A program made the position numbers and the translations under genes. From the NCBI GenBank assembly GCA_049968235.1, contig JBMFRC010000035.1:1-16202 (forward strand): a stretch of DNA of 16,202 nt, in the 5' to 3' direction. The stretch comes from Candidatus Hydrogenedens sp. (lineage in GTDB: Bacteria; Hydrogenedentota; Hydrogenedentia; Hydrogenedentales; Hydrogenedentaceae). This document shows, piece by piece, positions 1,692-16,058 of the stretch. A model generated the notes under the pieces. It was given only the letters and a program-made list of their open reading frames with translations, searched no databases and was not told the origin of the DNA. The first letter of the stretch is position 1. Each line of letters begins with the position of its first letter.

Positions 1692-2618
1692 TTACGATTT
1701 TTTACGAATTATCATGGATACAACTTGCAGGGTATTCACATTTTTTTCTTGATTATCTATAATCAAAGGTTTTGTTCCATACTCCTTTAATACTTCAAAG
1801 CATAAATCAATATTATCCGTTAATATATAATCAACTCCTGCATCTACTAATTTTTTTATTATTTCCGGGTCCTGAGCACTAAAAAAATTTACCTTTATTC
1901 CATGTTGATGGGCTAATTCTACATCTTCTTTAAGATTATCCAATCCCTGTGTAAAACTAATTTGAACATAAGAAACCTGTAGTCTTATGCCCCTTTCTAT
2001 AAAATCCCGTCTTTTTTCTAATTTTTCAGGGATTAAACAAATTTTCATCTCGGGAACTTTATTACGAACTACTTCTACTTGTTTTTCATTATTACAAGCA
2101 ATAAAACATCGCCCTATTTGTCCTGTTTCTTTTAATGTTTTTGCTACTACTTCTGTGGCAAATTCATCCCCATAAACATGAACATTACATAGAATACCAT
2201 AAGGAATTGTATTTATTACTTCATATAAGGATGGAATTTTTGTACCTATAAATGAATTGCCGAACCATTTTCCGGCATCCAGTTTATATATTTCTTCACT
2301 GAGTAAATCCTGAACCTTACCCTTTCCATTTGTGGTCCTGTCGACTTTTTCATCATGCATAATTATTAGATGTCCATCTTTAGTCATTCGTACATCAAAC
2401 TCAATCATATGTACCCCCTTTTTTACTGCAGATTGAAATGCAGGTAAGGTATTTTCAGGTGCATTCTTTACATCTCCCCTATGTGCGCAAACATAAGTTT
2501 CCCCAGCACCTATATTTGAAACTAAAATTAGAAGAAGTTCCAAAACAACAAGAGAACTAACTTTTATTTGCTTTATTAAACATCTTAATAATACGTGGTA
2601 CATTTTCCAATGCCTCAT
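1692..2618 (-). CDS. glycerophosphodiester phosphodiesterase (GlpQ/UgpQ family), probably secreted
   Basis: Shows the GDPD hallmarks CAHRGD...APENTLPAF...MIEFDVRMTKDGHLIIMHDEKVDRTTNGKG. The maximal ORF runs to 2654. The more likely start is Met at 2618 or 2603 (GAGG about 10 nt upstream of 2603), which gives an n-region plus hydrophobic LVVLELLLILVSNIGAG signal-peptide-like N-terminus. It overlaps the alaS 3' end. Confidence 0.8.
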   Translation of the reverse strand: MRHWKMYHVLLRCLIKQIKVSSLVVLELLLILVSNIGAGETYVCAHRGDVKNAPENTLPAFQSAVKKGVHMIEFDVRMTKDGHLIIMHDEKVDRTTNGKGKVQDLLSEEIYKLDAGKWFGNSFIGTKIPSLYEVINTIPYGILCNVHVYGDEFATEVVAKTLKETGQIGRCFIACNNEKQVEVVRNKVPEMKICLIPEKLEKRRDFIERGIRLQVSYVQISFTQGLDNLKEDVELAHQHGIKVNFFSAQDPEIIKKLVDAGVDYILTDNIDLCFEVLKEYGTKPLIIDNQEKNVNTLQVVSMIIRKKS

Positions 2619-5205
2619 TAAATTTCTCAATATCTTTTCCTCCCGCCTGAGCAAAATCTTTCCTTCCGCCTCCTTTTCCTCCTACAATTTGTGCTAACTG
2701 GTTAACTATATCAGAAGAACTAAACTTATCAATTAAATCCTTTGTAACTCCTACACAGAAAGTGGCCTTATCTTCATATTTTATCCCTACAACTACAATT
2801 CCAGATTTAATCTTATCTTTCAAATGGTCTACAAGTGTTCGTGCCTGATTAATATCTTCATTTTCCAATACTAATGTTATAAAATTAACACCATCAATGG
2901 ATTTCACATTTTTCGACAAATCTTTCCCTTCACCTAACAATGCCTGTCGTTTCCATTTTTCTAATTCTTTATAGAGTTTTCTATTTTCTTCAATTATTTG
3001 TAATATTCGTTCTTGTAATCCTTCCGGAGATGAATTTATAGTTTCCGAAATTTCTTTTATCATTCGTTCTGTTTTCTGTATCCAATTGATAAAAGGTTCC
3101 CCGCATATAGCTTCAATTCTACGAACCCCAGCGGATACGGAGGATTCTGACAGAATCTTAAAACCACCTATAACGCCAGTTTGAGAAACATGACATCCTC
3201 CACAAAATTCGGTACTAATACCGTCAATTTTAACTACTCGCACTATGTCTCCATATTTTTCCCCAAATAAAGCCATAGCCCCTAATTTTCTGGCTTCATC
3301 TATGGGAAGATATAAAATCTCAACATTGTAATCTTCTCTAATTTTTTCATTAACCCATTTTTCAATATCCAAAATACGGTCATAACCTACTGCCTCAAAA
3401 TGGGTAAAATCGAAACGCAATCTTTCTTCAGAAACCAGAGAACCACATTGATGAACATGTTCACCTAAAATATCGCGAAGTGCGGATTGAAGTAAATGAG
3501 TTGCGGTATGGTGGTTTTGAATAGTGAGCCTTCTTTTATAGTCAATGATGGCATTGATATCTTCACCTGTTTTAAACTGTCCATTAACTACTTTCACATA
3601 GTGGACAAACAGTTTATCTAATATTTTTTTTGTATCTGTTACTTCCGCAAGTGTTTTCCCATCCAATCCTGACAGAATACCTATATCACCTACCTGACCA
3701 CCACTTTCAGCATAAAAAGGAGTTTTATTTAGAATAATCCATCCTTCTTCTCCTTCTTTTAATTCTTCTATAATATTACTTTCCTTTACAATGGCTATAA
3801 TTTTACAAACCGCTGTATTTTGTTCATAACCTATAAATTCTGTTTCACCGTATTGGGCTAAAATCTGGTGATACACAGGGGATATTTCCTGTTGACCACT
3901 TCCTACCCATGTTTTCCGGTTAAATTCTCTTTGTTTCTCTTTCGCTTTTATGTATCCATCTTCATCTAATTCAAAACCTTTCTCTTCAGCCATATCCTTC
4001 ACTATATCAAGAGGAAAACCGTATGTGTCATGTAGTTTAAAAAGAATATCTCCCGGTATAAGTTTTTCCCCTTTACTAATCATATCTTCAAAAAGTTCTT
4101 TCAATATATCCATACCACGAGATAAAGTACTACCGAACCGCTCTTCTTCAAGATTTATAATTTTTTCAATTTGTGTCTGTGTTTCTAACAATTCCGGATA
4201 ATATTTACCCATATTTTGTATTACGACTTTTGAAATTTGATGTAAAAATGGTTTAACCAGTCCAATTTCTCTACCAAATCGTGAAGCCCGTCTTAATATT
4301 CTTCTCCAAACATATCCCCTTCCCTCATTTGCGGGTAAAATCCCGTCAGCAGTCATGAAGGATAATGCTCGAATATGGTCTGCTATAACGCGGAAAGGAA
4401 TAGGATTTTCTTGATAAGAACATGTAGCAATTTCCTGAGTAATTTCTATGATTGGAAACAAAACATCGGTATCAAAAACAGTTGTCTTATTTTGTAGTAA
4501 TAAGCACATTCTTTCTAATCCCATTCCTGTATCAATTCCCCGATTTTTTAACGGTAACCGTGTTCCATCCACCTGCTGGTCATATTGGGGAAAAACCAGA
4601 TTCCAGAATTCTAAAAAACGCTCATGGGGGTCATTTTCAGGCGTAGCATTAGGGTCAATGTCCTCACCTTTATCAAAAAGAAGTTCAGAACAAGGTCCAC
4701 AGGCACCTGAATCCCCCGCAGGTCCCCAAAAATTGTCCTTTGCTCCCAAACGAACTATTCTTTTTTCAGGTACTCCAATCTCTTTATTCCATATATCAAA
4801 AGCCTCATCATCTTCTTCATAGACCGATACCCATATTTGTTCCGGTTTTATTTTCATAACTTGTGTTGAATATTCCCATGCCCATTGTATAGCCTCTCTT
4901 TTAAAGTAATCACCAAAAGAAAAATTCCCGAGCATTTCAAAAAAGGTTAAATGACGGGATGTCTTCCCTACTTCCTCTAAATCATTGGCTTTCCCTCCTG
5001 CTCTTAAGCATTTCTGAACTGTTGAAGCCCTCCGATATGGAACAGGAACTTCCCCTGTATAATAAGGTTTAAATTGAACCATTCCTGCACTGGTAAAGAG
5101 CAGTGTTGGGTCATTTTTGGGAATTAATGTATCACTTTTTTCGATAACATGACCTCTGTTTCTGAAAAAATCTAAAAAACTCTCACGAATTTCATAACTT
5201 TTCAC
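2557..5205 (-). CDS. alaS: alanine--tRNA ligase (alanyl-tRNA synthetase), 882 aa, GTG start
   Basis: N-terminus MKSYEIRESFLDFFRNRGHVIEKSDTLIPKNDPTLLFTSAGMVQFKP, class II catalytic core, editing domain (HHTATHLL...CGGCHV) and C-terminal DHHA1-like tail. The start codon is GTG, with GGAGAAA 6 nt upstream. Confidence 0.97.
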   Translation of the reverse strand: MKSYEIRESFLDFFRNRGHVIEKSDTLIPKNDPTLLFTSAGMVQFKPYYTGEVPVPYRRASTVQKCLRAGGKANDLEEVGKTSRHLTFFEMLGNFSFGDYFKREAIQWAWEYSTQVMKIKPEQIWVSVYEEDDEAFDIWNKEIGVPEKRIVRLGAKDNFWGPAGDSGACGPCSELLFDKGEDIDPNATPENDPHERFLEFWNLVFPQYDQQVDGTRLPLKNRGIDTGMGLERMCLLLQNKTTVFDTDVLFPIIEITQEIATCSYQENPIPFRVIADHIRALSFMTADGILPANEGRGYVWRRILRRASRFGREIGLVKPFLHQISKVVIQNMGKYYPELLETQTQIEKIINLEEERFGSTLSRGMDILKELFEDMISKGEKLIPGDILFKLHDTYGFPLDIVKDMAEEKGFELDEDGYIKAKEKQREFNRKTWVGSGQQEISPVYHQILAQYGETEFIGYEQNTAVCKIIAIVKESNIIEELKEGEEGWIILNKTPFYAESGGQVGDIGILSGLDGKTLAEVTDTKKILDKLFVHYVKVVNGQFKTGEDINAIIDYKRRLTIQNHHTATHLLQSALRDILGEHVHQCGSLVSEERLRFDFTHFEAVGYDRILDIEKWVNEKIREDYNVEILYLPIDEARKLGAMALFGEKYGDIVRVVKIDGISTEFCGGCHVSQTGVIGGFKILSESSVSAGVRRIEAICGEPFINWIQKTERMIKEISETINSSPEGLQERILQIIEENRKLYKELEKWKRQALLGEGKDLSKNVKSIDGVNFITLVLENEDINQARTLVDHLKDKIKSGIVVVGIKYEDKATFCVGVTKDLIDKFSSSDIVNQLAQIVGGKGGGRKDFAQAGGKDIEKFNEALENVPRIIKMFNKANKS

Positions 5206-5300: not shown

Positions 5301-5336
5301 AAAAAAGAAGAGAGAACAACATTATGTCCTCTCTTC
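5301..5336 (-). terminator. rho-independent terminator of the riboswitch-controlled gene
   Basis: On the minus strand: GAAGAGAG-(14-nt loop)-CTCTCTTC followed by TTTTTTAC. It lies 30 nt after the stop codon of the 5367..6698 gene. Confidence 0.6.
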
Positions 5337-5366: not shown

Positions 5367-6698
5367 CTACAATATTGATACACTCCTCTTCAGTCTATAA
5401 AAGGCTAATAGCGACAATGAAAGAATCATTATTATAAGAAATATAGGTTTATATAAAGGCAATCTATTTTCTGTAACGATAATATGAACAGTATAGATGG
5501 CTTTTTCATTTCCGTAACTACATATATATGTCCCTGTATCTTCAGGTTGTGCATTATAAATTAATAACTTTTTACAATGTATTCCTGAAATTCTGGGATT
5601 TGTGCTTATATCACCATTTATTTTACTCCATGTAAATTGTGTTCCTTCGGGAACTATTTCACCAAAAATATCAAGACAGACATCCTCACCAGAACGATAA
5701 ATAGATTTTCTAACGGAATTACAATCTGGACACTCTTCCTGTTCTGTTCTTAAGATGAGGTATCCCCTGTTATTTACTATTGCCAATATTGTATCTGAAT
5801 ATGGATTATAAAAAGCAGAATAATATCCCTGATTATTTGCGGGGTCCCAAACACGAACGATTTCACCTGTGGATGGATTTATTTCTTGTATTCCGCCCGG
5901 AAGCATAAAGCCTTCTGAACCAGCAACAATCAGGAGATTATCATTGCTTATTCCAGATACTCCACCTGTGAAATAAACCCCGGATGTCCCAACCGGTATT
6001 CCATCTATATTCCAATCAAGTGTAGTGTGAGTATTATATGCGTTGACTAAAGAGGATATTGAAAATTTACGTATTTCACGAGCATTACCATCCATTATAT
6101 AAACCCAAGTATCATCTTTTGCTAACGTAGCAGAATAGGCAAAGGGTGGCTTATCTATAACCATATCTTTGTTGAGTGATTTAGGTTTCATTAAAACAAA
6201 ATGGGAAATATTTTCATTTTTTTCATTTAGTGGTAAAATATGGATTTCACTTCCTGAAAAATCAGATTTTGTGACATCGAGTAGTAACAGGTCTGATGTT
6301 AAATAAATACCATAATAATGACTGATATTTGCAATAATAGACAATGGTGTAAAGTTCTGTGGATTTGTTAAATCAAGGAGATATATATCTCCTAAATATC
6401 CCTGTCCTAATATTGCTTTTTTTTCATCCGGACTAATTGCAACAAAAGCAGGGTCTCCTTGATAGCCTTCTGCAATCAAGAAATAATTGTCATTTTTGGG
6501 AGCAATCTGTTTATAGACCTGATTCCCATTCCAGATTAAAAAAGTGCCATCACTGAGAGGAGCAGAAGTAACAAAATATGAACCGGATGCAGGTTGTGGA
6601 ATATTAGGCAAAGGAATTACTGTTTCAGCCATAGCACTTAAAACTAATAAAAGGGAACTAAGAACAAAAACAGATTTAGCATAATTATAGAGAAACAT
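5367..6698 (-). CDS. uncharacterised secreted, membrane-anchored protein with beta-rich (propeller-like) repeats and a C-terminal Ig-like domain; cobalamin-riboswitch controlled
   Basis: N-terminal signal peptide MFLYNYAKSVFVLSSLLLVLSAMA|ETV. Body rich in G/Y/N/T beta-strand repeats. Ig-type signature near the C-terminus (FTWSK...NAQPEDTGTYICSY...YTVHIIV). Terminal TM helix plus basic tail (PIFLIIMILSLSLLAFYRLKRSVSIL). Strong SD GAAGGAGGA 7 nt upstream of the ATG. Confidence 0.8.
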   Translation of the reverse strand: MFLYNYAKSVFVLSSLLLVLSAMAETVIPLPNIPQPASGSYFVTSAPLSDGTFLIWNGNQVYKQIAPKNDNYFLIAEGYQGDPAFVAISPDEKKAILGQGYLGDIYLLDLTNPQNFTPLSIIANISHYYGIYLTSDLLLLDVTKSDFSGSEIHILPLNEKNENISHFVLMKPKSLNKDMVIDKPPFAYSATLAKDDTWVYIMDGNAREIRKFSISSLVNAYNTHTTLDWNIDGIPVGTSGVYFTGGVSGISNDNLLIVAGSEGFMLPGGIQEINPSTGEIVRVWDPANNQGYYSAFYNPYSDTILAIVNNRGYLILRTEQEECPDCNSVRKSIYRSGEDVCLDIFGEIVPEGTQFTWSKINGDISTNPRISGIHCKKLLIYNAQPEDTGTYICSYGNEKAIYTVHIIVTENRLPLYKPIFLIIMILSLSLLAFYRLKRSVSIL

Positions 6699-7030: not shown

Positions 7031-8129
<1,099 letters not shown>

Positions 8130-8140
8130 TCAATATCCTT

Positions 8141-8599
8141 TTATTCATTTTTACATTCCACTGATATATATACAGGGTAATCATCCAGACTTAGTTCAAC
8201 AAAATCTGCATCTTGTCTTATCTTTTCCCATTGTTCTTCATTAATTTCCTCTGCTGAAGGAGGCTGAAGTTCAAATACAGGTTCTGTCCCGGCTAATGAA
8301 GTTAAAAAATTTCCACAAAAAATATTTAAAAACTCACAAAGAGCATCTTTAGGTTCTACTTCTATATCCGTTTCTTCTTCATCAATACCTAAAACATTAC
8401 TCATCATTTCTCTGCACAATTCCTCCGGAGTTACAATGATGGCATTGCCTTTATACGGACCGGAAAAAGACATTTCAGCCTTGATATAGGGTGGCATTGC
8501 ATCCTGTTGCTCAGACCAATCATCTGCAAACATAAAAGCAAACTCTTTTGCCACATCAGTTAATACCTTTTTAATTAATTCTTTGTCCATTTCATTCAT
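8141..8599 (-). CDS. acidic CheC/CheX-family phosphatase-like protein (divergent CheX paralog)
   Basis: 152 aa, very acidic. The segment ALCEFLNIFCGNFL matches the CheX active-site region AVGELANMISGNAK (E-x2-N...GN). It overlaps the preceding cheY by 8 nt, which suggests translational coupling. Confidence 0.5.
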   Translation of the reverse strand: MNEMDKELIKKVLTDVAKEFAFMFADDWSEQQDAMPPYIKAEMSFSGPYKGNAIIVTPEELCREMMSNVLGIDEEETDIEVEPKDALCEFLNIFCGNFLTSLAGTEPVFELQPPSAEEINEEQWEKIRQDADFVELSLDDYPVYISVECKNE

Positions 8600-8981
8600 T
8601 TCCAGATACTCCCAAAAGTTCTATAACCAAATTTTTTAACGATTCCGGTGTGAACGGTTTTCTAAGGTACGCTTTAACTCCTTTCGATTTCAATTCTTCA
8701 ACACGTGTTTGACTTCCTTCTGTGGATACAATGGCGATAGGAATGGTCTTTAAAAGTTCATCCTGATTCATCTCATTTATCAACTCAACTCCATTCATAA
8801 CGGGCATGTTAATATCCGTTAAAACAAGGTCAACCCAATTACTTCGCAGTATATCCAATGCTTCCTTCCCATTACTTGCATGGAGAATATTTCCTATTTC
8901 CACACCAGACAATCGCAAGGTCTTTTCCATCACGGCTCGCACTGTTGTTGAATCATCAACAATCAAAATATTGATACTCAT
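8592..8981 (-). CDS. cheY: CheY-like single-domain response regulator
   Basis: ILIVDDSTTVRAV...LVLTDINMPVMNG...KAYLRKPF: receiver domain with the conserved Asp pocket and the phospho-acceptor Asp in LTD. A 4-nt ATGA overlap with the upstream HDOD gene. Confidence 0.9.
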   Translation of the reverse strand: MSINILIVDDSTTVRAVMEKTLRLSGVEIGNILHASNGKEALDILRSNWVDLVLTDINMPVMNGVELINEMNQDELLKTIPIAIVSTEGSQTRVEELKSKGVKAYLRKPFTPESLKNLVIELLGVSGNE

Positions 8982-9838
8982 GTAATTTCTCCTGATTTTA
9001 AATTGTCCAGAAATGCTTCTATCTCCCCAATTAATTTAGATAGAACAACTTCCACAATTTGCATATCTATTTTCAATCGTTCTATAGAATGGATATTATT
9101 TGAATAATTTAAACCGTCTATTCCAGAACCAATGCCACATTCCAGACATAAATTACTTGCAATATGGATAAAATCAGCAACCAGACGATATTCTTCCGGA
9201 GCATTATCCGGCTCATGGTGATATAAGACAGGTTGAACTAAGTTATTGGGGAAATGCCACTCCTGCATTAATAAAGCGCCTACCTCCGAGTGGTCAATAC
9301 CTAAAATTTCTTTCTCTGCTTTTTCAAAAGATAGTTTCTCATCGTATGCCTTTTTTACTATAGGTTCCGCATCTATTTCTACAAAGGTTCCCAACACTAT
9401 TTTACCAATATCATGGAGTAATCCTACCGTAAAAGTATAAGGAGGAATATCTATTTTTAATTCTTTTCCCAGTAATTCACTGGCTATTGCAGTTCCTATT
9501 AAATGTTTTATTAGTTCTCCTGCAGGTAAGTCATATCCTCGAAGTGGTTTTACAACCGTCGGGAAAATTGTCGATGCAATAATCATCTGCTGAATTCTGT
9601 TTATCCCTAATAATACAACTGCCTCACGGACAGTACTTATTTTTTTAGGACCCGCAAAATATGCTGAATTGGCTAACTTTAATATATTTGCAGTTAATGT
9701 CGGGTCCATTTCCAATTCTTTAGATATATCTAATATTGGGGATTCTTTATTGTTTATCTTGCTTAAAATACGAGCAGTATTTGCAGGGAAAGCAGGTACT
9801 TCTTTAATTTTTTCTATAATTTTCTCTCGTATAGTCAT
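8978..9838 (-). CDS. HDOD domain protein (HD-related output domain)
   Basis: PAFPANTARILSKINNKESPILDISKELEMDPTLTANILKLANSAYFAG...LLGINRI...LLHDIGKIVL: the canonical HDOD N-terminal motif string. 286 aa with no other domain. Confidence 0.85.
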   Translation of the reverse strand: MTIREKIIEKIKEVPAFPANTARILSKINNKESPILDISKELEMDPTLTANILKLANSAYFAGPKKISTVREAVVLLGINRIQQMIIASTIFPTVVKPLRGYDLPAGELIKHLIGTAIASELLGKELKIDIPPYTFTVGLLHDIGKIVLGTFVEIDAEPIVKKAYDEKLSFEKAEKEILGIDHSEVGALLMQEWHFPNNLVQPVLYHHEPDNAPEEYRLVADFIHIASNLCLECGIGSGIDGLNYSNNIHSIERLKIDMQIVEVVLSKLIGEIEAFLDNLKSGEIT

Positions 9839-9852
9839 TCTATTTTTTCCTA

Positions 9853-10329
9853 TTACAATTCATATTCTTTCCCGGCACTTTTAATTGTTGTTTTACCATC
9901 ATTAATATATAAATACATCGTTCTCGCTAATGTTCCACCAATATCTTCTGATGAAATTAGTATATTATTTTTCCAGAGGAGTTTTCTCACTACAATGTGA
10001 TTTCTTTCCCCGATTCGGAACATTTCGTTATCATCTAACAGAACAGCACCACCAGCAACTTTAGCTATCATTCTTTTTTTATCTGCACCCATATTAATTA
10101 GTGTTTGCATCATTAGTGGCAAACCTGTATCTACAAACATGTATGGGGCTTCTCTGGCTCGTTCAGGGTCAACCTTCGATAAAGGTAACATGCAGTGAAT
10201 AAGTCCACCTATCTTCTGGAGTGGGTCATATAAAACAACACCTACACATGAACCCAAAGAATATGTAACTAACACATCCTCCGGATTACTTGAAACTTTC
10301 ATATCCGATATATTTACAGTAATTAACAC
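9853..10329 (-). CDS. cheD: chemoreceptor glutamine deamidase CheD (paralog 2)
   Basis: The LGSCVGVVLYDP...GGLIHCMLP motif region is typical of CheD, and the size is about 158 aa. Confidence 0.85.
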   Translation of the reverse strand: MLITVNISDMKVSSNPEDVLVTYSLGSCVGVVLYDPLQKIGGLIHCMLPLSKVDPERAREAPYMFVDTGLPLMMQTLINMGADKKRMIAKVAGGAVLLDDNEMFRIGERNHIVVRKLLWKNNILISSEDIGGTLARTMYLYINDGKTTIKSAGKEYEL

Positions 10330-10356: not shown

Positions 10357-11160
10357 CTATGGTTTATAGTAAATGGAAGGTTTTACTATTCGGAAACCCG
10401 TTTGTATCGAGGTAATACTTTCGGAATGTCCAACGAATAAATATCCTTTGGGTTTAAGAAGACGGTATATTTCATTGACCAGCATATTTCTAACTTTTTC
10501 ATCGAAGTATATCATCACATTCCTGCAAAATATTATATCAAAGGGTCCCTTCATAGGATAGGGAGTTTCTATTAAATTTAACCTCGAAAACGTAATTAAT
10601 TTTTTAATCCTATCTGACACCACGTATACCCAGTCATTCCCAACTTTCTTTTTTTCAAAATACTTCTGTAGTAAATATCCCGGAATATTCTCTACTTTAT
10701 GCGAATAGTATTCCCCCTTTTTAGATTGCTCTAATACTCGCGTCGATATGTCCGTGGCAAGAATTTTTAAATCTACAAAGGAACTATTAAGGGCTTCCAT
10801 AGCAGTAATGGCAATAGTATAAGGTTCCTCACCTGTGGAACAAGCAGATGACCATATTCTAAATTTTGTTTGCCCTTCTTCCTTCCATTCCATTAACTTC
10901 TCTTTTAAAAATTCAAAATGGTCGCTTTCCCGGAAAAAATGTGTCACATTCGTTGATATATAATCAATCAGTTTTATAATTTCCTGTCCTGATTTATCGT
11001 TTATTACATACTCGTAATAATCCTTAAAATCATTAATTCCTAAAGTGCGAATCCTTTTTGAAAGCCTCCCAACTACAAGTGCTTTTTTCTGGTCACTTAG
11101 ATGAATACCACTAGTTTCATATATCAATTGTCGAAATCTGTTGAATAAATTATTATCCAT
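10357..11160 (-). CDS. cheR: chemotaxis protein methyltransferase CheR
   Basis: N-terminal CheR helical domain (FRQLIYETSGIHLSDQKKALVVGRLSKRIR) and the SAM-binding fold motif IWSSACSTGEEPYTIAI...DIIFCRNVMIYFD. Confidence 0.95.
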   Translation of the reverse strand: MDNNLFNRFRQLIYETSGIHLSDQKKALVVGRLSKRIRTLGINDFKDYYEYVINDKSGQEIIKLIDYISTNVTHFFRESDHFEFLKEKLMEWKEEGQTKFRIWSSACSTGEEPYTIAITAMEALNSSFVDLKILATDISTRVLEQSKKGEYYSHKVENIPGYLLQKYFEKKKVGNDWVYVVSDRIKKLITFSRLNLIETPYPMKGPFDIIFCRNVMIYFDEKVRNMLVNEIYRLLKPKGYLFVGHSESITSIQTGFRIVKPSIYYKP

Positions 11161-11169
11161 ATACGCTCT

Positions 11170-11679
11170 CTATTCTTCAGGTAATTCTAAAATCCAATCT
11201 TCTTTTCGTATTTGATAAACTTTTAAGACAATAATATGACCTGTATAACTATTAAAAACGATTTTTCTGCCCATATTTCCTCCAACATCTTCTGATACAA
11301 TCTTTATACCTTTACTTTTCAATATTTTCCGGGCAACTTCCACATTATCTTTACCAATATCTTTGCTTTTACTATTAAAAGGAGGAACTGCACCTCCTAC
11401 GATTTGGGCAAAAATGGAATTTGTTCTGGCGCCTGCCTTTTCCATCATTTGTATTAGTTGAAGTGTTGCCACATTACCATATTGGGAAGTGGCTTTATCT
11501 TTTGATGATACACTGGGATAAAGAAAATGGTTCATTCCCCCTATCTTTAATTTTTTATCCCATAGACAAACAGATACACATGACCCCAGAACAGCATACA
11601 AATTTGTGGGAACAGTGGGAAGATAGATATACCCCGGTTCAATAAATACCTGCTGATACGATGTCAATTCTTTTGACAT
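11170..11679 (-). CDS. cheD: chemoreceptor glutamine deamidase CheD (paralog 1)
   Basis: LYAVLGSCVSVCLWD...GGMNHFLYP and the C-terminal GGNMGRKIVF region. CheD family, 169 aa. Confidence 0.85.
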   Translation of the reverse strand: MSKELTSYQQVFIEPGYIYLPTVPTNLYAVLGSCVSVCLWDKKLKIGGMNHFLYPSVSSKDKATSQYGNVATLQLIQMMEKAGARTNSIFAQIVGGAVPPFNSKSKDIGKDNVEVARKILKSKGIKIVSEDVGGNMGRKIVFNSYTGHIIVLKVYQIRKEDWILELPEE

Positions 11680-11695: not shown

Positions 11696-12067
11696 CTATT
11701 GACCTTTACTTTTGTTTAACACTTCTTGAATTTTCCCAACGATAGTGTTAGGTTCAAAAGGTTTAATTACATAATTCGTTGCACCTGCTTTTAATGCTTC
11801 TAATACTCTGCTTTTTTCCGCTTCGGTTGTAACCATAATAATCGGCATTGTTTTACCCATTTCACGGATTGCTTTTAATGCATCAATTCCCAACATATTG
11901 GGCATATTCCAATCCATTAAAATAATATCATAGTCGTTTTGTTGAACAGCCTGTACTGCTTCTGCTCCATCCGCCGCCTGGTCAACCTCGTTTATATTTG
12001 CTCTACCTAATGCTCCAATCAATACTTTTCTCATTACTGCAGAATCATCAACAACCAATGCCCTCAT
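11696..12067 (-). CDS. cheY: chemotaxis response regulator CheY
   Basis: MRALVVDDSAVMRKVL...DIILMDWNMPNMLGIDAL...NYVIKPF. Classic CheY, 123 aa. Confidence 0.95.
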   Translation of the reverse strand: MRALVVDDSAVMRKVLIGALGRANINEVDQAADGAEAVQAVQQNDYDIILMDWNMPNMLGIDALKAIREMGKTMPIIMVTTEAEKSRVLEALKAGATNYVIKPFEPNTIVGKIQEVLNKSKGQ

Positions 12068-12083
12068 TATTTACACCTCTTTC

Positions 12084-12551
12084 CTATTTTTCTGGTTCAA
12101 ATGTGACCCGTAGCGTAAACGGACCTAATTCACTATCAAAGTTTATTTCTATCCATACAGAATTTGTAGGATAATCTACTGAAAAGTCTCCACCACGAAC
12201 TACTGTGGGTAAACTTAAATCCAAAGGCTTCTCATCACCTGTATTTAATCTCGCTTTTGCTCCTCCTGCAACGATATTCACCATCTCAGCAATAGCATCA
12301 GATACGGTATCATCCATAATCTTTATATCTGCATTTAGCAATTTATTTACCATAGCAAGAGCAGTAGAAACAGGAAAAGCAAGGGCAACCATTCCACGTA
12401 CCCTTCCACTAATCCCAATTAACGCCATTATGTCTCGCGGATTGGCTGATTTTGCTATTCCTACATTTTTTCGTTCCGCTTTTGCATTTAACATTGTTGT
12501 AAATAAATCATATACACTTTCTATAAACGGATTGATATGTTCAGCCTTCAT
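12084..12551 (-). CDS. cheX: CheY-P phosphatase CheX
   Basis: 155 aa. INPFIESVYDLFTTML N-terminus, AEMVNIVAGGAK active-site motif (E-x2-N) and a C-terminal beta region. It resembles spirochaete/Thermotoga CheX. Confidence 0.8.
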   Translation of the reverse strand: MKAEHINPFIESVYDLFTTMLNAKAERKNVGIAKSANPRDIMALIGISGRVRGMVALAFPVSTALAMVNKLLNADIKIMDDTVSDAIAEMVNIVAGGAKARLNTGDEKPLDLSLPTVVRGGDFSVDYPTNSVWIEINFDSELGPFTLRVTFEPEK

Positions 12552-12588: not shown

Positions 12589-13092
12589 TCAAAGAGAACT
12601 CAAACTTTGTATTTCATTGGCGGTTAATACTTTATCTATATCCAAAAGTATAACCACCGCTTCGCCTAATTTTCCCATCGCCATAATAAATGCAGTATCA
12701 ATACTTGCTCCAAAAGAAGGAGCAGGTTCTATTTGATTCTCTGCTATATCTACAACCTCTGAAACTTCATCTACGATTATACCCATAGTTATAGGACCAA
12801 CATTTCCCATAACTTGAACAACAATTATACAGGTATGGTCCGTATCTTCTACGGTTTCCATATCAAATTTCTTACGAAGTTCAATAACAGGAATTACTTT
12901 ACCTCTTAGATTAATTACACCACGAACAAAATTAGGTGTTCTCGGGATAGAGGTAATACTCATCAGTCCAATTATTTCCTGTACCTTCAGTATCTCTATT
13001 CCATAGGTTTCATGAGACAACTTAAATGTGAGATACTTGCCTGCTAATGATTTTAACTCGTGCTTGCTTGTGGTTTTTTCTTGTTCTGTCAT
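12589..13092 (-). CDS. cheW: chemotaxis coupling protein CheW
   Basis: KYLTFKLSHETYGIEILKVQEIIGL...VRGVINLRGKVIPVIELRKKF. CheW fold, 167 aa. Confidence 0.95.
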   Translation of the reverse strand: MTEQEKTTSKHELKSLAGKYLTFKLSHETYGIEILKVQEIIGLMSITSIPRTPNFVRGVINLRGKVIPVIELRKKFDMETVEDTDHTCIIVVQVMGNVGPITMGIIVDEVSEVVDIAENQIEPAPSFGASIDTAFIMAMGKLGEAVVILLDIDKVLTANEIQSLSSL

Positions 13093-13141: not shown

Positions 13142-15949
13142 CTATACAAAAGTAGTGGATTCTTCTGCTAATTTTAGTATTCCTGCAATATCTAAAATTA
13201 GACCTACTTTACCATCCGGCATAATAGCTCCCCCTGCAATTCCCGGTACACCCTTTAAGGCTTCTCCCAAAGATTTAATTACAATTTGCTGTTGACCCAA
13301 TATCTCATCTACTAACAAACCCACCTGAGAATTGCCCGTTTCTACGACCACAATAGTTCCTTCCGTATATTCTTCAACAGCATTGGGAATATTAAATAAT
13401 TTATTTAATCTGTATAAATTTATTAGTTTTCCATGGAACGATAAAACTTCGCCTTTTCCAACTACAGTATTTATCTCTTTTTTTGTCGGTCTTAATGATA
13501 TTATAATAGACAATGTCGGGATAATATATCTTTCCATTCCCACGCGAACAACCATTCCATCAATAATTGCCAATGTTAAGGGTAATCGTATTGTAAACAC
13601 AGTCCCTTTTCCCGGTGTAGATTGAATTTCCACATGCCCTCTTAAAGCCTCTATATTCTTCTTTACCACATCCATACCTACACCGCGACCGGATACCTCT
13701 GTTACAACCTTTGCTGTAGAAAAGCCCGGTTCAAATATAAGATTCCATACTTCACGATCTGATAGACCTTCCTCAGAACGAATTAGCCCTCGTTCTATTG
13801 CCTTTTTTATAATGGCTTCTCGATTAAGCCCTGCTCCATCATCTTCAACTTGTATATGTATATTTCCGCCAGCATGATATGCCCTGAGATATATATTCCC
13901 TATAGGCGGTTTTCCATGTTTAATTCGTTCCTCCGGATTACTTTCAATTCCGTGGTCCACCGAATTGCGAACCATATGAACAAGCGGGTCTCCTATTTTA
14001 TCAACCACAGTCTTATCTAATTCCGTATCTTCTCCACTGGTATGAAATTCAATCAACTTCCCCGTTTTTTTGGATAAATCGCGAACCAGCCGTGCCATTT
14101 TTTGAAATGTGCTTTTTATCGGTATCATCCGAAGAGACATCGCCATAAGTTGTAATTCTCTTGTTATCTTATCCAATTGCCCCATATATCTCGACAAATC
14201 CGTATACAAATCCCCATTTATTTCTACCTCTCTTGCAACCATAGATTCAGCAATAACTAACTCACCAATCATATCCACAAGTTGGTCTAATCGATTGGCA
14301 TCTACTTTTATTGCTTCCGCTACACTTGCTTGAGGTGCTAATGATTGTGCCCGTTGTGTGCGAAGTGCCTGAACGACTTCTTTCGCATTAGCTTCTCCAG
14401 TCTGAACCAGCAATTCTCCCAATTTCGGAGGTTCCTGGGATTGCTTCTGTTTTTCTATTGCATTTTGAATTTCCTCCTCCGTAGCAAAACCCAATTCTAC
14501 TACAATTTCTCCTATAAGTTTGTTCGGGAATTCAGTTTTTTGTAATTCCAATACCTTTTCTAATTGCTTTGAAGATATAACATTATATTTAACTAATATT
14601 TCTCCCACTGCTACAGGTTCTGTTGGACTTTTCTGTAATATTAGGGCTCGCTTTACACTATCTTCAGATATAGATTCAGAACCTACCATTATCTCGCCCA
14701 ATCGGGATATATTTTTCCCCGGTTTTTCACGAAATATTGTCGTTACCTTTTTACCTTGCAAAACCCGATGAATATTCTCAATCAATTCTCCCGAGTTTTC
14801 TTGCGGAATTACAGGTTCCCCTGTGGTCAACGCTTTTCGAACAGCATTTACACACTCCTTCAATGTATCTACCGCTTCAAAGACAACATCAATAGCATTA
14901 CCCACAAGTAACATTTCTTTTTTTCTTGCACGGTCTAATAAATTTTCCGCTTCGTGCGATATCTGTTTAATCTCGTCTAATCCTAAAAAACCTGACACTC
15001 CTTTAATTGTATGAAAGGCTCGAAACACCGCATTTATTGCATCCTTATCTTCCGGGTCTGTTTCCAGAGTAAGCAAGTGGACATCACAGTTATCTAAATG
15101 TTCTGTTGCTTCTTGAATAAAATCTTTCACTAAATCAAGGTCACCTTCTAAAACTTTTGGTTCGAATTTCTTCGTCTCTGCTACTTGTTGTTCTGTTTTT
15201 TCTCCCGCATCTTTTCTACTCTCCTTTGCCAATTTCTTCCTTAATTCATTAGGAAACAGAGGCATAGGTCCCTTCCCGGCAATAGCATCAAATTTCTTTT
15301 TCAACCAGTCTTTTAATGTAAACAAATCATCGACCAATTCTTGAGTTACCCCCTGTTCAATTCGGTCTTCTGCTAAATGACATAAGTCCTGAATATCATT
15401 TAACCCTAAAATCCCCGTTTCTCCTTTTAATGTATGAATCTTCCTCTTCAATTCTGCAATTACTTCCTGTTTATCCCCATCTTCTTTATAACTCAATAAC
15501 AACGCTTCCATTTCTTCCAGATTAGAATCCTGAGATTGAATAAACTGTTGGAATATTTCTGGGTCAACATTTTCTGGCAACTCAAATACCTGCCCCGAAC
15601 CTTGAACTATGATATTCTCTATTCTCTTTTGTTGCAATTCATTCGGATAAATTACTTCAGATTCACTGACTCCGGCTACAATTAACTGCTGTATGGAACT
15701 GATGACTTGAGATAAAGTTTTCAAGGCTTCATCAGGGTTGGACATTTCCTGTAAAACAATCTTTTCTATCCAATCCGCACTATTATCCGCAACTATAGCC
15801 GTTCTAAGAAAACCCTGCGAATTTGCCCATTCCCGTATCTCGATAAGACAGGTATGCATTTGTGCCAATTCCTGTAAATCTCCAGGACTTACAAATACCG
15901 CCAATTCACTTAATTTCTCTATTGTCTTCTGAATTTCTATTTCCACCAT
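13142..15949 (-). CDS. cheA: chemotaxis histidine kinase CheA, atypical: two Hpt (HxxKG) domains and four MshEN-like 24-aa motifs in place of a P2 domain
   Basis: Hpt motifs IHTLKGETGILGL and AFHTIKGVSGFLGL. P3 dimerisation region (IKVDANRLDQLVDMIGELVIAES). HATPase N/G1/F/G2 boxes (HMVRNSVDHGIE, VEDDGAGLN, FEPGFST, GRGVGMDVV). C-terminal CheW-like P5 domain. SD GGAGA 8 nt upstream of the ATG. Confidence 0.97.
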   Translation of the reverse strand: MVEIEIQKTIEKLSELAVFVSPGDLQELAQMHTCLIEIREWANSQGFLRTAIVADNSADWIEKIVLQEMSNPDEALKTLSQVISSIQQLIVAGVSESEVIYPNELQQKRIENIIVQGSGQVFELPENVDPEIFQQFIQSQDSNLEEMEALLLSYKEDGDKQEVIAELKRKIHTLKGETGILGLNDIQDLCHLAEDRIEQGVTQELVDDLFTLKDWLKKKFDAIAGKGPMPLFPNELRKKLAKESRKDAGEKTEQQVAETKKFEPKVLEGDLDLVKDFIQEATEHLDNCDVHLLTLETDPEDKDAINAVFRAFHTIKGVSGFLGLDEIKQISHEAENLLDRARKKEMLLVGNAIDVVFEAVDTLKECVNAVRKALTTGEPVIPQENSGELIENIHRVLQGKKVTTIFREKPGKNISRLGEIMVGSESISEDSVKRALILQKSPTEPVAVGEILVKYNVISSKQLEKVLELQKTEFPNKLIGEIVVELGFATEEEIQNAIEKQKQSQEPPKLGELLVQTGEANAKEVVQALRTQRAQSLAPQASVAEAIKVDANRLDQLVDMIGELVIAESMVAREVEINGDLYTDLSRYMGQLDKITRELQLMAMSLRMIPIKSTFQKMARLVRDLSKKTGKLIEFHTSGEDTELDKTVVDKIGDPLVHMVRNSVDHGIESNPEERIKHGKPPIGNIYLRAYHAGGNIHIQVEDDGAGLNREAIIKKAIERGLIRSEEGLSDREVWNLIFEPGFSTAKVVTEVSGRGVGMDVVKKNIEALRGHVEIQSTPGKGTVFTIRLPLTLAIIDGMVVRVGMERYIIPTLSIIISLRPTKKEINTVVGKGEVLSFHGKLINLYRLNKLFNIPNAVEEYTEGTIVVVETGNSQVGLLVDEILGQQQIVIKSLGEALKGVPGIAGGAIMPDGKVGLILDIAGILKLAEESTTFV

Positions 15950-16021
15950 ACATCAAATCTCCATCGTATTATTTTGCTAAAATTACATTAAATATTTTAG
16001 CACGAATAATACACATTTAAC

Positions 16022-16058
16022 CCTATTCGTGGCTATAATACACAGCCACGAATAGGGC
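16022..16058 (-). terminator. perfect 14-bp inverted repeat with a 9-nt loop (CCCTATTCGTGGCT...AGCCACGAATAGGG): probable terminator hairpin of the upstream gene, or an operator
   Basis: GC-rich stem in an AT-rich spacer, 18 nt after the stop codon of the partial upstream gene. The 3' flank on the minus strand (TTAAATGTGTATTATT) is only moderately U-rich. Confidence 0.4.

What the first reader, a model, noticed from the sequence alone, without database searches (positions are those of the whole stretch)
8592..9838. HDOD protein translationally coupled to a CheY inside the che operon: a split receiver-HDOD pair
HDOD domains are usually fused to receiver or GGDEF/EAL domains and are linked genomically to c-di-GMP signalling. 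Here a stand-alone HDOD gene overlaps the downstream cheY by ATGA. That cheY in turn overlaps a CheX-like phosphatase gene. Together with the MshEN-like modules in CheA, this suggests a c-di-GMP-linked signalling branch of the pathway.
Basis: inference. Interest (0 to 1): 0.5.

Follow-up and report, generated by a model that had tools for sequence, protein, structure and literature searches.

The report
CheD-linked HDOD protein in chemotaxis operon
A small protein of unknown function (HDOD family) sits in a chemotaxis operon next to a CheY and a phosphatase, as reported, but across many bacterial phyla its most constant neighbour is the receptor-modifying enzyme CheD, which gives this poorly understood domain a testable role in chemotactic adaptation.

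Summary
On the minus strand of a Candidatus Hydrogenedens contig, an 11-gene operon reads cheA-cheW-cheX1-cheY1-cheD1-cheR-cheD2-HDOD-cheY2-cheX2-cheB. HDOD overlaps cheY2 by ATGA, and cheY2 overlaps cheX2 by 8 nt. CheA carries an MshEN-like insert.

I surveyed the 80 closest relatives, each from a different species and spanning about 10 phyla.
- CheD lies directly upstream of HDOD in 62/78 loci, usually with a 4-nt overlap.
- CheY lies directly downstream in 49/78, mostly with a short gap.
- CheY-CheX lies downstream in 48/77.
- Isolated cheD-HDOD pairs occur with no other che gene nearby.

No fused HDOD/REC orthologue turned up in two very large protein searches. CheY2 resembles ordinary CheY, not the receivers of REC-HDOD regulators.

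The family carries a C-terminal loop motif, GxGxGxDGLNY. This motif tracks CheD adjacency better than the six metal ligands do.

Best reading (inferred): HDOD is a CheD partner within a CheY2~P/CheX2-controlled adaptation sub-module, analogous to CheC-CheD. A c-di-GMP link remains circumstantial.

I found no paper that describes the cheD-HDOD pairing. Interest is moderate.

The parts
13142..15949 (-). cheA (935 aa): two Hpt domains, dimerisation domain, HATPase and CheW-like domains
   Evidence: Pfam
14330..14722 (-). MshEN-like insert in CheA (aa 410-540): four copies of an xLGExLVxxGxxxxxxhxxAhxxQ-type 24-residue unit
   Evidence: Similar to solved MshEN-type domains: PilF 6f8l E 2.7e-13, PilB 5zfr, MshE 5htl. 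The Pfam MshEN model is not hit. Translation. Present in CheA of 19/34 related loci.
12589..13092 (-). cheW (167 aa)
   Evidence: Pfam CheW E 1.1e-38
12084..12551 (-). cheX1 (155 aa), the well-conserved CheX paralogue
   Evidence: Pfam CheX E 3.9e-21; D-x3-E-x2-N-x22-P motif readable
11696..12067 (-). cheY1 (123 aa), canonical CheY with the DWNMPNM motif
   Evidence: Pfam REC E 7.5e-32; family conservation
11170..11679 (-). cheD1 (169 aa), divergent CheD paralogue, absent from several related operons
   Evidence: Pfam CheD E 9.9e-23; 35% identical to CheD2; loci
10357..11160 (-). cheR (267 aa)
   Evidence: Pfam CheR and CheR_N
9853..10329 (-). cheD2 (158 aa), the HDOD-linked CheD paralogue with T22, C28 and H45
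   Evidence: Pfam CheD E 2.4e-28. Directly upstream of HDOD in 62/78 related loci. T22 and H45 are invariant and C28 is at least 90% conserved.
8978..9838 (-). Stand-alone HDOD gene (286 aa) retaining six HD-type metal ligands (H112, H142, D143, H183, H207, H208)
   Evidence: Pfam HDOD E 1.6e-52 and HD E 4.7e-8; PDB relatives 3m1t and 3hc1; AF2 model pLDDT 88.4; Foldseek hits to 3hc1, 3m1t and SadB
9104..9136 (-). Family-specific C-terminal loop motif GIGSGIDGLNY (aa 235-245); candidate partner-binding element (inferred)
   Evidence: Translation. Invariant or near-invariant in A1. Lies in a loop between helices 215-233 and 249-255. Present in 58/65 CheD-adjacent versus 6/22 non-adjacent HDODs. 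Absent from REC-HDOD fusions.
8978..8981 (-). ATGA overlap between the HDOD stop and the cheY2 start
   Evidence: shared only by close relatives
8592..8981 (-). cheY2 (129 aa), CheY-type receiver with D9, D10, D56, S86, Y105 and K108
   Evidence: Pfam REC E 2.8e-26; alignment to E. coli CheY, 30% identity with all phosphorylation residues aligned
8592..8599 (-). 8-nt overlap (ATGAATGA) between the cheY2 stop and the cheX2 start
   Evidence: REC and cheX overlap in 45/49 related loci
8141..8599 (-). cheX2 (152 aa), divergent CheX paralogue that keeps D-x3-E-x2-N
   Evidence: Pfam CheX E 2.1e-13; 28% identical to CheX1; family conservation DalkE.lNv.CG
7047..8123 (-). cheB (358 aa), REC plus methylesterase; last che gene
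   Evidence: Pfam

Best explanation
The finding is part of a conserved four-gene accessory block, cheD2-HDOD-cheY2-cheX2. The block sits between cheR and cheB, in the receptor-modification part of a chemotaxis operon.

What is shown:
- The block is found in many phyla.
- It consists of two tightly coupled pairs, cheD-HDOD and cheY-cheX.
- cheD-HDOD is the core, because it also occurs alone.
- The HDOD proteins of this family are always stand-alone.
- They share a C-terminal loop motif, GxGxGx[DE]G(L)xY.
- The window protein also keeps all six ligands of the di-iron site seen in structure 3HC1.

What is inferred:
- HDOD binds CheD2 and regulates its action on chemoreceptors (deamidation, or receptor binding).
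- In this it plays the role that CheC plays for CheD in Bacillus and Thermotoga. This operon has only CheX-type phosphatases and no CheC.
- CheY2, phosphorylated by CheA and reset by CheX2, would modulate the HDOD-CheD2 interaction. Kinase activity would thereby feed back on receptor modification.
- The metal pocket may add a second input (metal, redox state or a nucleotide). It does not appear to be essential for the CheD-linked role.
For: Survey of the 80 closest relatives, one per GTDB species. These include Hydrogenedentota, Nitrospirota, Planctomycetota, Zixibacteria, Sumerlaeota, Marinimicrobia, Thermodesulfobacteriota, Kiritimatiellales and Verrucomicrobia:
- CheD is directly upstream in 62/78 loci.
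- REC is directly downstream in 49/78.
- REC plus CheX is downstream in 48/77.

Gene overlaps:
- cheD/HDOD overlap in 51/66 loci (47 are 4-nt overlaps).
- REC/cheX overlap in 45/49.
- HDOD/REC overlap in 13/53.

Isolated cheD-HDOD pairs sit in unrelated contexts (L075; L084).

The motif [DE]GxxY occurs in 58/65 CheD-adjacent versus 6/22 non-adjacent HDODs (Fisher p 8e-8, not corrected for phylogeny). The six ligands are intact in only 41/65 CheD-adjacent members. All Desulfovibrionaceae cheD-HDOD pairs have degenerate ligands but keep DGLxY.

CheD2 keeps T22, C28 and H45. Neither phosphatase is CheC-type: both match CheX better than CheC. CheY2 keeps every phosphorylation residue, and CheX2 keeps the catalytic E and N.

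The precedent is the CheC-CheD-CheY~P adaptation model (PMC3513319, abstract listed). SadB shows that an HDOD domain can act as a non-catalytic protein adaptor (PMC12075610).
Against: - No physical interaction was tested.
- A mirror-tree comparison did not single out any pair. Partial correlations were 0.23-0.42 for all pairs.
- The motif is not exclusive to CheD neighbours. FapA-HDOD pairs keep it.
- I did not see a receptor-like CheD recognition motif when reading the HDOD sequence by eye.
- The metal site is intact in 34/46 full modules, which suggests a metal-dependent activity that this model does not explain.
- The survey covers only the closest 80 relatives, and its counts are not independent phylogenetically.
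Confidence: 0.4

Rival explanations
1. HDOD would be a metal-dependent hydrolase or sensor of c-di-GMP or a related nucleotide, controlled by CheY2~P. It would act together with the MshEN-like c-di-GMP receptor modules in CheA.
For: - The CheA insert resembles solved c-di-GMP-binding MshEN domains.
- MshEN-like CheA occurs in 19/34 related loci.
- Close HDOD relatives lie directly upstream of MshEN-T2SSE ATPases in L044, L049 and L069.
- The six metal ligands are intact in the window protein and in 34/46 full modules.
- The next-best fold matches after the HDOD structures are cyclic-dinucleotide phosphodiesterase HD domains (PgpH).
- HDOD is a frequent partner domain of EAL proteins (PMC2952852).
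- MshEN-CheA and MshEN-CheX fusions have been catalogued (PMC5013675).
Against: - There is no GYP motif and no HD-GYP Pfam hit.
- DVU0330, an HDOD with intact HD residues, showed only weak bis-pNPP activity and none on c-di-GMP (PMC4114195).
- SadB did not bind c-di-GMP by Biacore (PMC12075610).
- 15/34 CheAs in these loci lack the insert.
- About a third of family members have lost metal ligands yet keep the che context.
- The few extra operon genes I checked are FapA or MCPs, not GGDEF or EAL proteins.
- Most MshEN-bearing CheAs come from one phylum, so the co-occurrence may be inherited rather than functional.
Confidence: 0.2
2. HDOD is simply the output target of CheY2~P, a functional two-chain version of a REC-HDOD response regulator. 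It would relay the chemosensory signal to something other than receptors, such as flagellar or pilus assembly. CheD adjacency would be incidental.
For: - HDOD-REC-CheX adjacency is conserved (48/77 loci).
- REC-HDOD regulators exist, and GsmR affects flagellar genes (PMC11004494; PMC4114195).
- Stand-alone HDOD proteins affect motility in Pseudomonas and Campylobacter.
- FapA, a flagellar assembly protein, recurs next to this family.
- Ligand loss is concentrated in pairs that lack CheY2: 9/18 versus 4/46.
Against: - CheD adjacency is more frequent and tighter than REC adjacency. It also persists without REC.
- No fusion with REC was found in either order.
- CheY2 is not related to the receivers of REC-HDOD regulators.
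Confidence: 0.15
3. HDOD is a di-iron sensor of oxygen, nitric oxide or redox state. It would tune CheD activity or adaptation for energy taxis or aerotaxis.
For: - The relative 3HC1 binds two iron ions through five His and one Asp (PMC12075610), and the window protein keeps all six.
- Several related operons encode soluble PAS-HAMP receptors.
- Distant fold matches include the mixed-valent di-iron HD oxygenases PhnZ and TmpB, at weak E-values.
Against: - There is no direct evidence.
- Ligands are lost in about a third of the family.
- The metal identity in this protein is unknown.
Confidence: 0.1
4. There is no specific function within the pathway. HDOD would be a passenger gene, kept in the operon by inheritance.
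For: Counts come from related genomes and are not phylogenetically independent.
Against: - The arrangement spans about ten phyla at 37-50% protein identity.
- The cheD-HDOD pair recurs in unrelated genomic contexts.
- 4-nt overlaps are maintained in 47/66 loci.
Confidence: 0.05

Closest known systems
CheC-CheD-CheY~P adaptation system of Bacillus subtilis and Thermotoga maritima
   Same: - A CheD deamidase gene is translationally coupled to a small partner gene inside a che operon.
- A CheY and a CheC/CheX-family phosphatase lie in the same block.
- The proposed logic is the same: CheY~P controls how much CheD is available to receptors (PMC3513319).
   Different: - The partner is an all-helical HD-superfamily protein (HDOD), unrelated to CheC.
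- The phosphatase is CheX-type. From my own knowledge, CheX is not known to bind CheD.
- No interaction has been shown for the HDOD-CheD pair.
REC-HDOD response regulators (GsmR of Xanthomonas, DVU0330 of Desulfovibrio, MmoQ)
   Same: - An HDOD domain is associated with a receiver.
- There are links to motility.
- DVU0330 and the fusions in these loci also keep the HD ligands.
   Different: - Here the genes are separate and in the reverse order.
- No fused orthologue exists.
- The receiver is CheY-like, not RR-like.
- The fusions lack the GxGxGxDGLNY loop.
Stand-alone HDOD structures 3HC1 (Geobacter sulfurreducens) and 3M1T (Shewanella amazonensis)
   Same: - Same fold: Foldseek E 8e-12 and 3e-11, TM about 0.7.
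- Sequence E-values are 1.6e-28 and 2.2e-33.
- 3HC1 shares the six metal ligands.
   Different: - Both are structural-genomics entries with no assigned function.
- 3M1T has lost several ligands (alignment).
- I did not examine their gene contexts.
SadB (YbaK-HDOD) of Pseudomonas, PDB 9QZK
   Same: - HDOD fold.
- It acts as a protein adaptor without needing a ligand in the pocket (PMC12075610). This is a precedent for a non-catalytic role.
   Different: - SadB has an N-terminal YbaK-like domain.
- Only one His faces its pocket.
- It targets AmrZ proteolysis, not chemotaxis proteins.
Stand-alone HD-domain genes in Geobacter group-alpha che clusters (Tran et al. 2008)
   Same: A stand-alone HD-superfamily gene inside a che cluster, already proposed to be regulated by or to take part in chemotaxis-like signalling (PMC2577667).
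   Different: - That paper describes the clusters as confined to Geobacteraceae.
- It does not report an HDOD assignment or a CheD pairing.
- I could not test whether those genes belong to the same family.

Membership tests
HDOD domain (PF08668) | Match to the family profile above the curated cut-off | tested here: met
   178.3 bits against a cut-off of 22.9, covering profile positions 2-196 of 196
HDOD domain (PF08668) | All-helical HD-like fold matching solved HDOD structures | tested here: met
   AF2 model pLDDT 88.4, all helices. The top Foldseek hits are 3hc1, 3m1t, 9qzk, 3mem, 3i7a and 1vqr.
HDOD domain (PF08668) | Distinct from HD-GYP (no GYP motif) | tested here: met
   Only the HDOD, HD and Cas3_HD models are hit. 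The sequence after HHE is PDNAPEE, not xxDGxGYP.
HDOD domain (PF08668) | Lack of phosphohydrolase activity, as often stated for HDOD | not testable with these tools
   The window protein keeps H112, H142, D143, H183, H207 and H208, equivalent to the Fe ligands of 3HC1. Activity cannot therefore be excluded.
CheY (single-domain chemotaxis receiver) | REC fold with the acidic pocket, phospho-Asp, Thr/Ser, Tyr and Lys | tested here: met
   PF00072 E 2.8e-26. D9, D10, D56, S86, Y105 and K108 align with CheY D12, D13, D57, T87, Y106 and K109.
CheY (single-domain chemotaxis receiver) | Phosphorylated by CheA and acts on a motor or another target | not testable with these tools
   Operon membership only. 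CheY1 carries the canonical DWNMPNM motif, whereas CheY2 has DINMPVM.
CheX phosphatase (CheC/CheX/FliY family) | Profile match and the active-site motif D/S-x3-E-x2-N-x22-P | tested here: met
   PF13690 scores 50.5 bits against a cut-off of 27. D-ALC-E-FL-N is present, with Pro 21-22 residues after the Asn. D, E and N are conserved in 50 orthologues.
CheX phosphatase (CheC/CheX/FliY family) | Dephosphorylates CheY~P | not testable with these tools
   Inferred from the 8-nt overlap with cheY2 and from REC/cheX overlap in 45/49 loci
   A concatenated HDOD+CheY2 query returned a top 120 that are all stand-alone proteins of 270-331 aa. In the exhaustive profile search, the best 150 representatives are all 212-351 aa.
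   - The gene order is HDOD then REC.
- Fusion receivers score 23-29 bits against CheY2, versus 69 bits for CheY1.
- The fusions lack the family motif.
CheC-CheD type adaptation module | CheD with the Thr-Cys-His catalytic residues | tested here: met
   CheD2 has T22, C28 and H45. The spacing matches T. maritima T21/C27/H44 (recalled from my own knowledge of Chao et al. 2006). The residues are conserved in alignment A2.
CheC-CheD type adaptation module | A CheC partner encoded next to CheD | tested here: not met
   No CheC is present. Both CheC-family genes match CheX better than CheC. HDOD occupies the neighbouring position in 62/78 loci. The module may therefore work like CheC-CheD, but it is not a member of that system.
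CheC-CheD type adaptation module | Partner binds CheD, and binding is strengthened by CheY~P | not testable with these tools
MshEN c-di-GMP receptor domain (in CheA) | Sequence similarity to MshEN-type domains | tested here: inconclusive
   The segment is significantly similar to solved PilF, PilB and MshE N-terminal domains (E 2.7e-13 to 2.9e-3). The Pfam MshEN model is not hit even at E 10.
MshEN c-di-GMP receptor domain (in CheA) | Paired 24-residue motifs RLGxxLVxxGxLxxxxLxxxLxxQ with the Arg, Gly and Gln residues | tested here: inconclusive
   Four copies are readable. All four keep LG/VG/IG and the terminal Q. Arg is present in one copy and Lys in another. The central Gly is present in two of the four. 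The motif definition is recalled from Wang et al. 2016.
MshEN c-di-GMP receptor domain (in CheA) | Binds c-di-GMP | not testable with these tools

The most novel reading that the evidence does not exclude
The CheD-linked HDOD family would be a previously unrecognised chemotaxis adaptation protein, a functional replacement for CheC. It would bind CheD through its GxGxGxDGLNY loop and respond to CheY2~P. Through its di-iron pocket it would also make receptor modification sensitive to a second cue, such as redox state, O2/NO or a nucleotide like c-di-GMP. This would give the HDOD domain its first defined biochemical role, and would explain what CheD does in the many bacteria that lack CheC.
Probability: 0.2. 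Interest if true: 0.75.

Novelty: new variant of a known kind. Interest (0 to 1): 0.55.

Why it matters
HDOD is a very large signalling domain family. The exhaustive profile search found 50,022 cluster representatives at E ≤ 0.001. Only about 25 relevant papers in the searchable library mention it, and they report conflicting results on catalysis and c-di-GMP binding.

CheD is widespread, but its regulation is understood only where CheC is present.

A cheD-HDOD pair conserved across phyla, often extended by a dedicated CheY-CheX pair, gives both problems a concrete and cheap experiment: test binding, test the effect on deamidation, and test dependence on CheY~P. It also identifies a motif to mutate.

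If the metal pocket proves to be functional, the module would be a route by which a second cue enters chemotactic adaptation.

Tried and rejected
- **Rosetta-stone search for HDOD-REC or REC-HDOD fusions.** I used a concatenated query and an exhaustive profile search. No fusions ranked among the listed hits (the top 120 and the best 150, respectively), so I rejected the gene-fission reading.
- **Mirror-tree correlation** of distance matrices for CheR, CheD2, HDOD, CheY2, CheX2 and CheB in 29 complete loci. All partial correlations fell between 0.23 and 0.42, so it had no discriminating power.
- **Structure prediction of a CheD2-linker-HDOD chain** from a paired alignment (A2).
- **Pfam scan of the CheA insert for MshEN**. 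There was no hit, only a weak DUF4388 match. A search against PDB sequences was needed to show the relationship.
- **Literature searches** for HDOD with chemotaxis, CheY/CheA/CheX, COG1639/PF08668, and cheD with phosphohydrolase. I found no description of a cheD-HDOD pairing. The only precedent is stand-alone HD-domain genes in Geobacter che clusters.
- **Receptor-like CheD recognition motif** ([ASTG]xx[EQ][EQ]xx[ASTG]) in HDOD, checked by eye. None was evident.
- **Intrinsic terminators or promoters splitting the operon**. Nothing convincing lay between cheA and cheB.
- **Membership in HD-GYP.** I considered this and rejected it, because there is no GYP motif and no matching Pfam hit.
Full report
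**What is in the window**

The contig matches a Candidatus Hydrogenedens sp. metagenome-assembled genome. The HDOD protein has a 100% identical database entry whose longest contig is 16,202 bp.

All long ORFs lie on the minus strand. Pfam assigns eleven consecutive genes, in this order:
- cheA, 13142-15949. It has two Hpt domains, a dimerisation domain, HATPase and CheW-like domains.
- cheW, 12589-13092
- cheX1, 12084-12551
- cheY1, 11696-12067
- cheD1, 11170-11679
- cheR, 10357-11160
- cheD2, 9853-10329
- HDOD, 8978-9838
- cheY2, 8592-8981
- cheX2, 8141-8599
- cheB, 7047-8123

Gaps between genes range from -8 to 49 nt. I found no convincing terminator between cheA and cheB. A perfect hairpin lies upstream of cheA.

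**Checking the observation**

- The HDOD ORF scores E 1.6e-52 against PF08668 and also passes the HD model.
- The next gene is a single-domain receiver, and the gene after it is CheX-like.
- The minus-strand sequence reads AGGAGAAATTACATGAGT. The HDOD TGA stop overlaps the cheY2 ATG start, with a Shine-Dalgarno-like AGGAG 8 nt upstream.
- cheY2 ends and cheX2 starts within ATGAATGA.
- CheY2 aligns with E. coli CheY at 30% identity, and D12, D13, D57, T87 (Ser here), Y106 and K109 are all matched.
- CheX2 keeps the D-x3-E-x2-N active-site motif.

The remark about MshEN-like modules in CheA also holds.
- Residues 410-540 match the solved MshEN-type domains of PilF (E 2.7e-13), PilB and MshE.
- The Pfam MshEN model is not hit.
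- Only some of the four 24-residue repeats keep the Arg and Gly of the canonical motif.
- MshEN fusions to CheA and CheX were already catalogued by Wang et al. 2016 (PMC5013675).

**Is the arrangement more than chance?**

A 4-nt overlap is ordinary within operons, so I looked at relatives instead. A profile of 23 homologues (A1) retrieved the 80 closest relatives, each from a different GTDB species, at 37-81% identity. They span Hydrogenedentota, Nitrospirota, Planctomycetota/Phycisphaerae, Zixibacteria, Sumerlaeota, Marinimicrobia, Thermodesulfobacteriota, Kiritimatiellales, Verrucomicrobia and others. I labelled ORFs in these loci by phmmer against the window proteins.

Neighbour counts:
- CheD is directly upstream of HDOD in 62 of 78 evaluable loci.
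- A CheY-type receiver is directly downstream in 49 of 78.
- A receiver followed by CheX is downstream in 48 of 77.
- The commonest full order is the window's own.

Gene spacing, with start sites refined by alignment:
- cheD and HDOD overlap in 51 of 66 loci; 47 of these are 4-nt overlaps.
- The receiver and cheX overlap in 45 of 49.
- HDOD and the receiver overlap in only 13 of 53, and are usually separated by 1-23 nt.

The block is therefore built from two coupled pairs, cheD-HDOD and cheY-cheX. The window's ATGA junction is a feature of its own lineage.

The cheD-HDOD pair also occurs alone in unrelated contexts:
- In a Desulfovibrionaceae genome it sits between a DUF4198 gene and an amidase (L075).
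- In another genome it sits between glucosamine-6-phosphate isomerase and ribonucleotide reductase (L084).

**Is it a split REC-HDOD regulator?**

I tested this in three ways.
1. A concatenated HDOD+CheY2 query would rank any fused orthologue well above stand-alone proteins of 45-50% identity. Against 5.8 billion proteins, the top 120 hits were all stand-alone HDOD proteins of 270-331 aa.
2. An exhaustive profile search of 1.84 billion cluster representatives found 50,022 HDOD-like proteins. The best 150 are all 212-351 aa.
3. REC-HDOD fusions do occur elsewhere in some of the same loci (L040, L072, L061).
   - Their receivers score only 23-29 bits against CheY2, whereas CheY2 scores 69 bits against CheY1.
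   - Their HDOD parts score 60-100 bits, compared with 240-380 bits within the family.
   - They lack the family motif.

The gene order is also reversed relative to those regulators. As an evolutionary statement, the split-regulator reading fails. As a functional analogy, with a receiver controlling an HDOD, it remains possible.

**Features of the HDOD family**

- The AF2 model is confident (pLDDT 88.4) and entirely helical.
- Its best structural matches are the HDOD structures 3HC1, 3M1T, SadB (9QZK) and 3MEM. More distant matches are cyclic-dinucleotide phosphodiesterase HD domains.
- 3HC1 binds two iron ions through five His and one Asp (PMC12075610). The window protein aligns His or Asp at all six positions: H112, H142, D143, H183, H207 and H208.
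- The family also has a conserved C-terminal loop, G235-x-G-x-G-x-D-G-L-N-Y245, between helices 215-233 and 249-255.

How the two features track gene context:
- In the loci, [DE]GxxY is present in 58 of 65 CheD-adjacent HDODs and in 6 of 22 others (Fisher p 8e-8, not phylogeny-corrected).
- The six ligands are intact in 41 of 65 CheD-adjacent members and in 19 of 22 others.
- All Desulfovibrionaceae cheD-HDOD pairs have several ligand substitutions but keep DGLxY.
- Among 293 family proteins, the motif is present in 248 and the ligands are intact in 195.
- Ligand loss is concentrated where CheY2-CheX2 is absent. Two or more substitutions occur in 9 of 18 such loci, against 4 of 46 full modules.

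The motif is not exclusive to CheD neighbours.
- Two relatives that keep it lie directly after FapA.
- FapA also sits inside some of the che operons.
- Three relatives without the motif lie directly upstream of MshEN-T2SSE ATPases.
- A DALSY variant sits in a metabolic context.

**Most likely mechanism**

What is shown:
- The accessory block cheD2-HDOD-cheY2-cheX2 is conserved and lies among the receptor-modification genes.
- cheD-HDOD is its core.
- A family-specific surface loop is better conserved in the che context than the metal site.
- CheD2 keeps T22, C28 and H45.
- CheY2 keeps every residue needed for phosphorylation, and CheX2 keeps its catalytic E and N. Both look competent on sequence; activity was not tested.
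- The operon has no CheC. Both CheC-family genes match CheX.

What is inferred:
- In Bacillus, CheC controls how much CheD reaches the receptors, in a manner dependent on CheY~P (PMC3513319). By analogy, HDOD is a CheD-binding regulator.
- CheY2~P would modulate that interaction, and CheX2 would reset it.
- SadB provides a precedent for an HDOD acting as a ligand-independent protein adaptor.
- The intact metal pocket in most full modules suggests an additional metal-dependent input or activity that this model leaves open.

I put about 0.4 on this explanation.

**Rival explanations**

The c-di-GMP reading has circumstantial support:
- MshEN-like CheA occurs in 19 of 34 loci.
- Some relatives lie next to MshEN ATPases.
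- HDOD is associated with EAL proteins (PMC2952852).
- Metal ligands are intact in most full modules.

It also faces negative biochemistry. DVU0330, an HDOD with intact HD residues, did not act on c-di-GMP (PMC4114195). SadB did not bind c-di-GMP. In addition, 15 of 34 CheAs lack the insert.

Other readings are a pure CheY2 output target, a di-iron redox or gas sensor, and a passenger gene. They are listed with their tests in the rival section.

**Comparison with what is known, and novelty**

- HDOD, CheY, CheX, CheD and MshEN-CheA are all known kinds.
- Stand-alone HDOD proteins affecting motility are known in Pseudomonas and Campylobacter.
- Stand-alone HD-domain genes in Geobacter che clusters were noted in 2008.
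- I found no paper describing a cheD-HDOD pairing or the four-gene block. The library lacks most subscription journals, so prior description cannot be excluded.

I classify the finding as a new variant of a known kind: a chemotaxis pathway with an uncharacterised, widely conserved accessory pair.

**Limits**

- No interaction or activity was tested.
- The survey covers only the closest relatives, and its counts are not phylogenetically independent.
- ORF calls in the loci are mechanical.

Noticed in passing
window 14330-14722 (CheA aa 410-540): CheA carries four tandem 24-residue LGExLV...Q units. They resemble solved MshEN-type c-di-GMP receptor domains (PilF E 2.7e-13), but the Pfam MshEN model misses them. 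The insert is present in CheA of 19/34 related loci. This architecture was catalogued in 2016 but remains untested.
   Followed up: partly
L044 5582-7582; L049 10971-12911; L069 10980-12923: Close HDOD relatives that are not next to cheD lie directly upstream of an MshEN-T2SSE ATPase with a C-terminal double zinc ribbon. These HDODs keep all six metal ligands but lack the DGLNY loop.
   Followed up: partly
L081 6489-7889, L083 6492-7922, L009 5716-7128: FapA (flagellar assembly protein A) recurs with this HDOD family. In two metagenome contigs it lies directly upstream of HDOD with no cheD. In L009 it sits inside the che operon between cheW and cheX1. ORFs of similar size occupy the same position in L010 and L025 (the L025 ORF had no Pfam hit), and similar-sized unlabelled gaps occur in L012, L018 and L020.
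   Followed up: partly
window 11170-11679 (cheD1) versus 9853-10329 (cheD2): The operon has two CheD paralogues that are 35% identical. CheD2 has T22, C28 and H45. CheD1 has the Cys and His but a Tyr where the Thr is expected, and it is missing from several related operons. There are likewise two CheX paralogues (28% identical) and two CheY paralogues (37% identical).
   Followed up: partly
L073, L074, L077, L080 (Desulfobacterales); L037, L051, L053, L062 (Marinimicrobia); L032, L061 (Kiritimatiellales): Variants of the block occur in other lineages: tandem HDOD duplicates after cheD; a second, motif-less HDOD after cheB; and cheD-cheB-HDOD followed by a REC-HDOD fusion.
   Followed up: no
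L030 5483-8503, L058 6407-8401, L047 3172-4785: MCP genes lie inside related operons. Those in L030 and L058 carry PAS and HAMP domains; the one in L047 has HAMP but no PAS hit. The window operon itself has no receptor gene.
   Followed up: no
window 5367-6698: A 443-aa protein with a hydrophobic N-terminus, a weak Ig-like domain and a C-terminal hydrophobic tail follows cheB after a 348-nt gap. It is conserved in the same position, before alaS, in the two closest relatives (L001, L002). A strong terminator-like hairpin follows it at 5307-5336.
   Followed up: no
window 16019-16055: A perfect inverted repeat (CCCTATTCGTGGCT...AGCCACGAATAGGG) lies between the end of the upstream ORF and cheA. 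It may be the terminator of the upstream gene. In L001 that upstream gene encodes 1187 aa with no Pfam match.
   Followed up: no
window 1692-2654 and 2557-5205: The mechanically called start of the GDPD-family ORF overlaps the end of alaS by 98 nt. The real start is probably further downstream.
   Followed up: no
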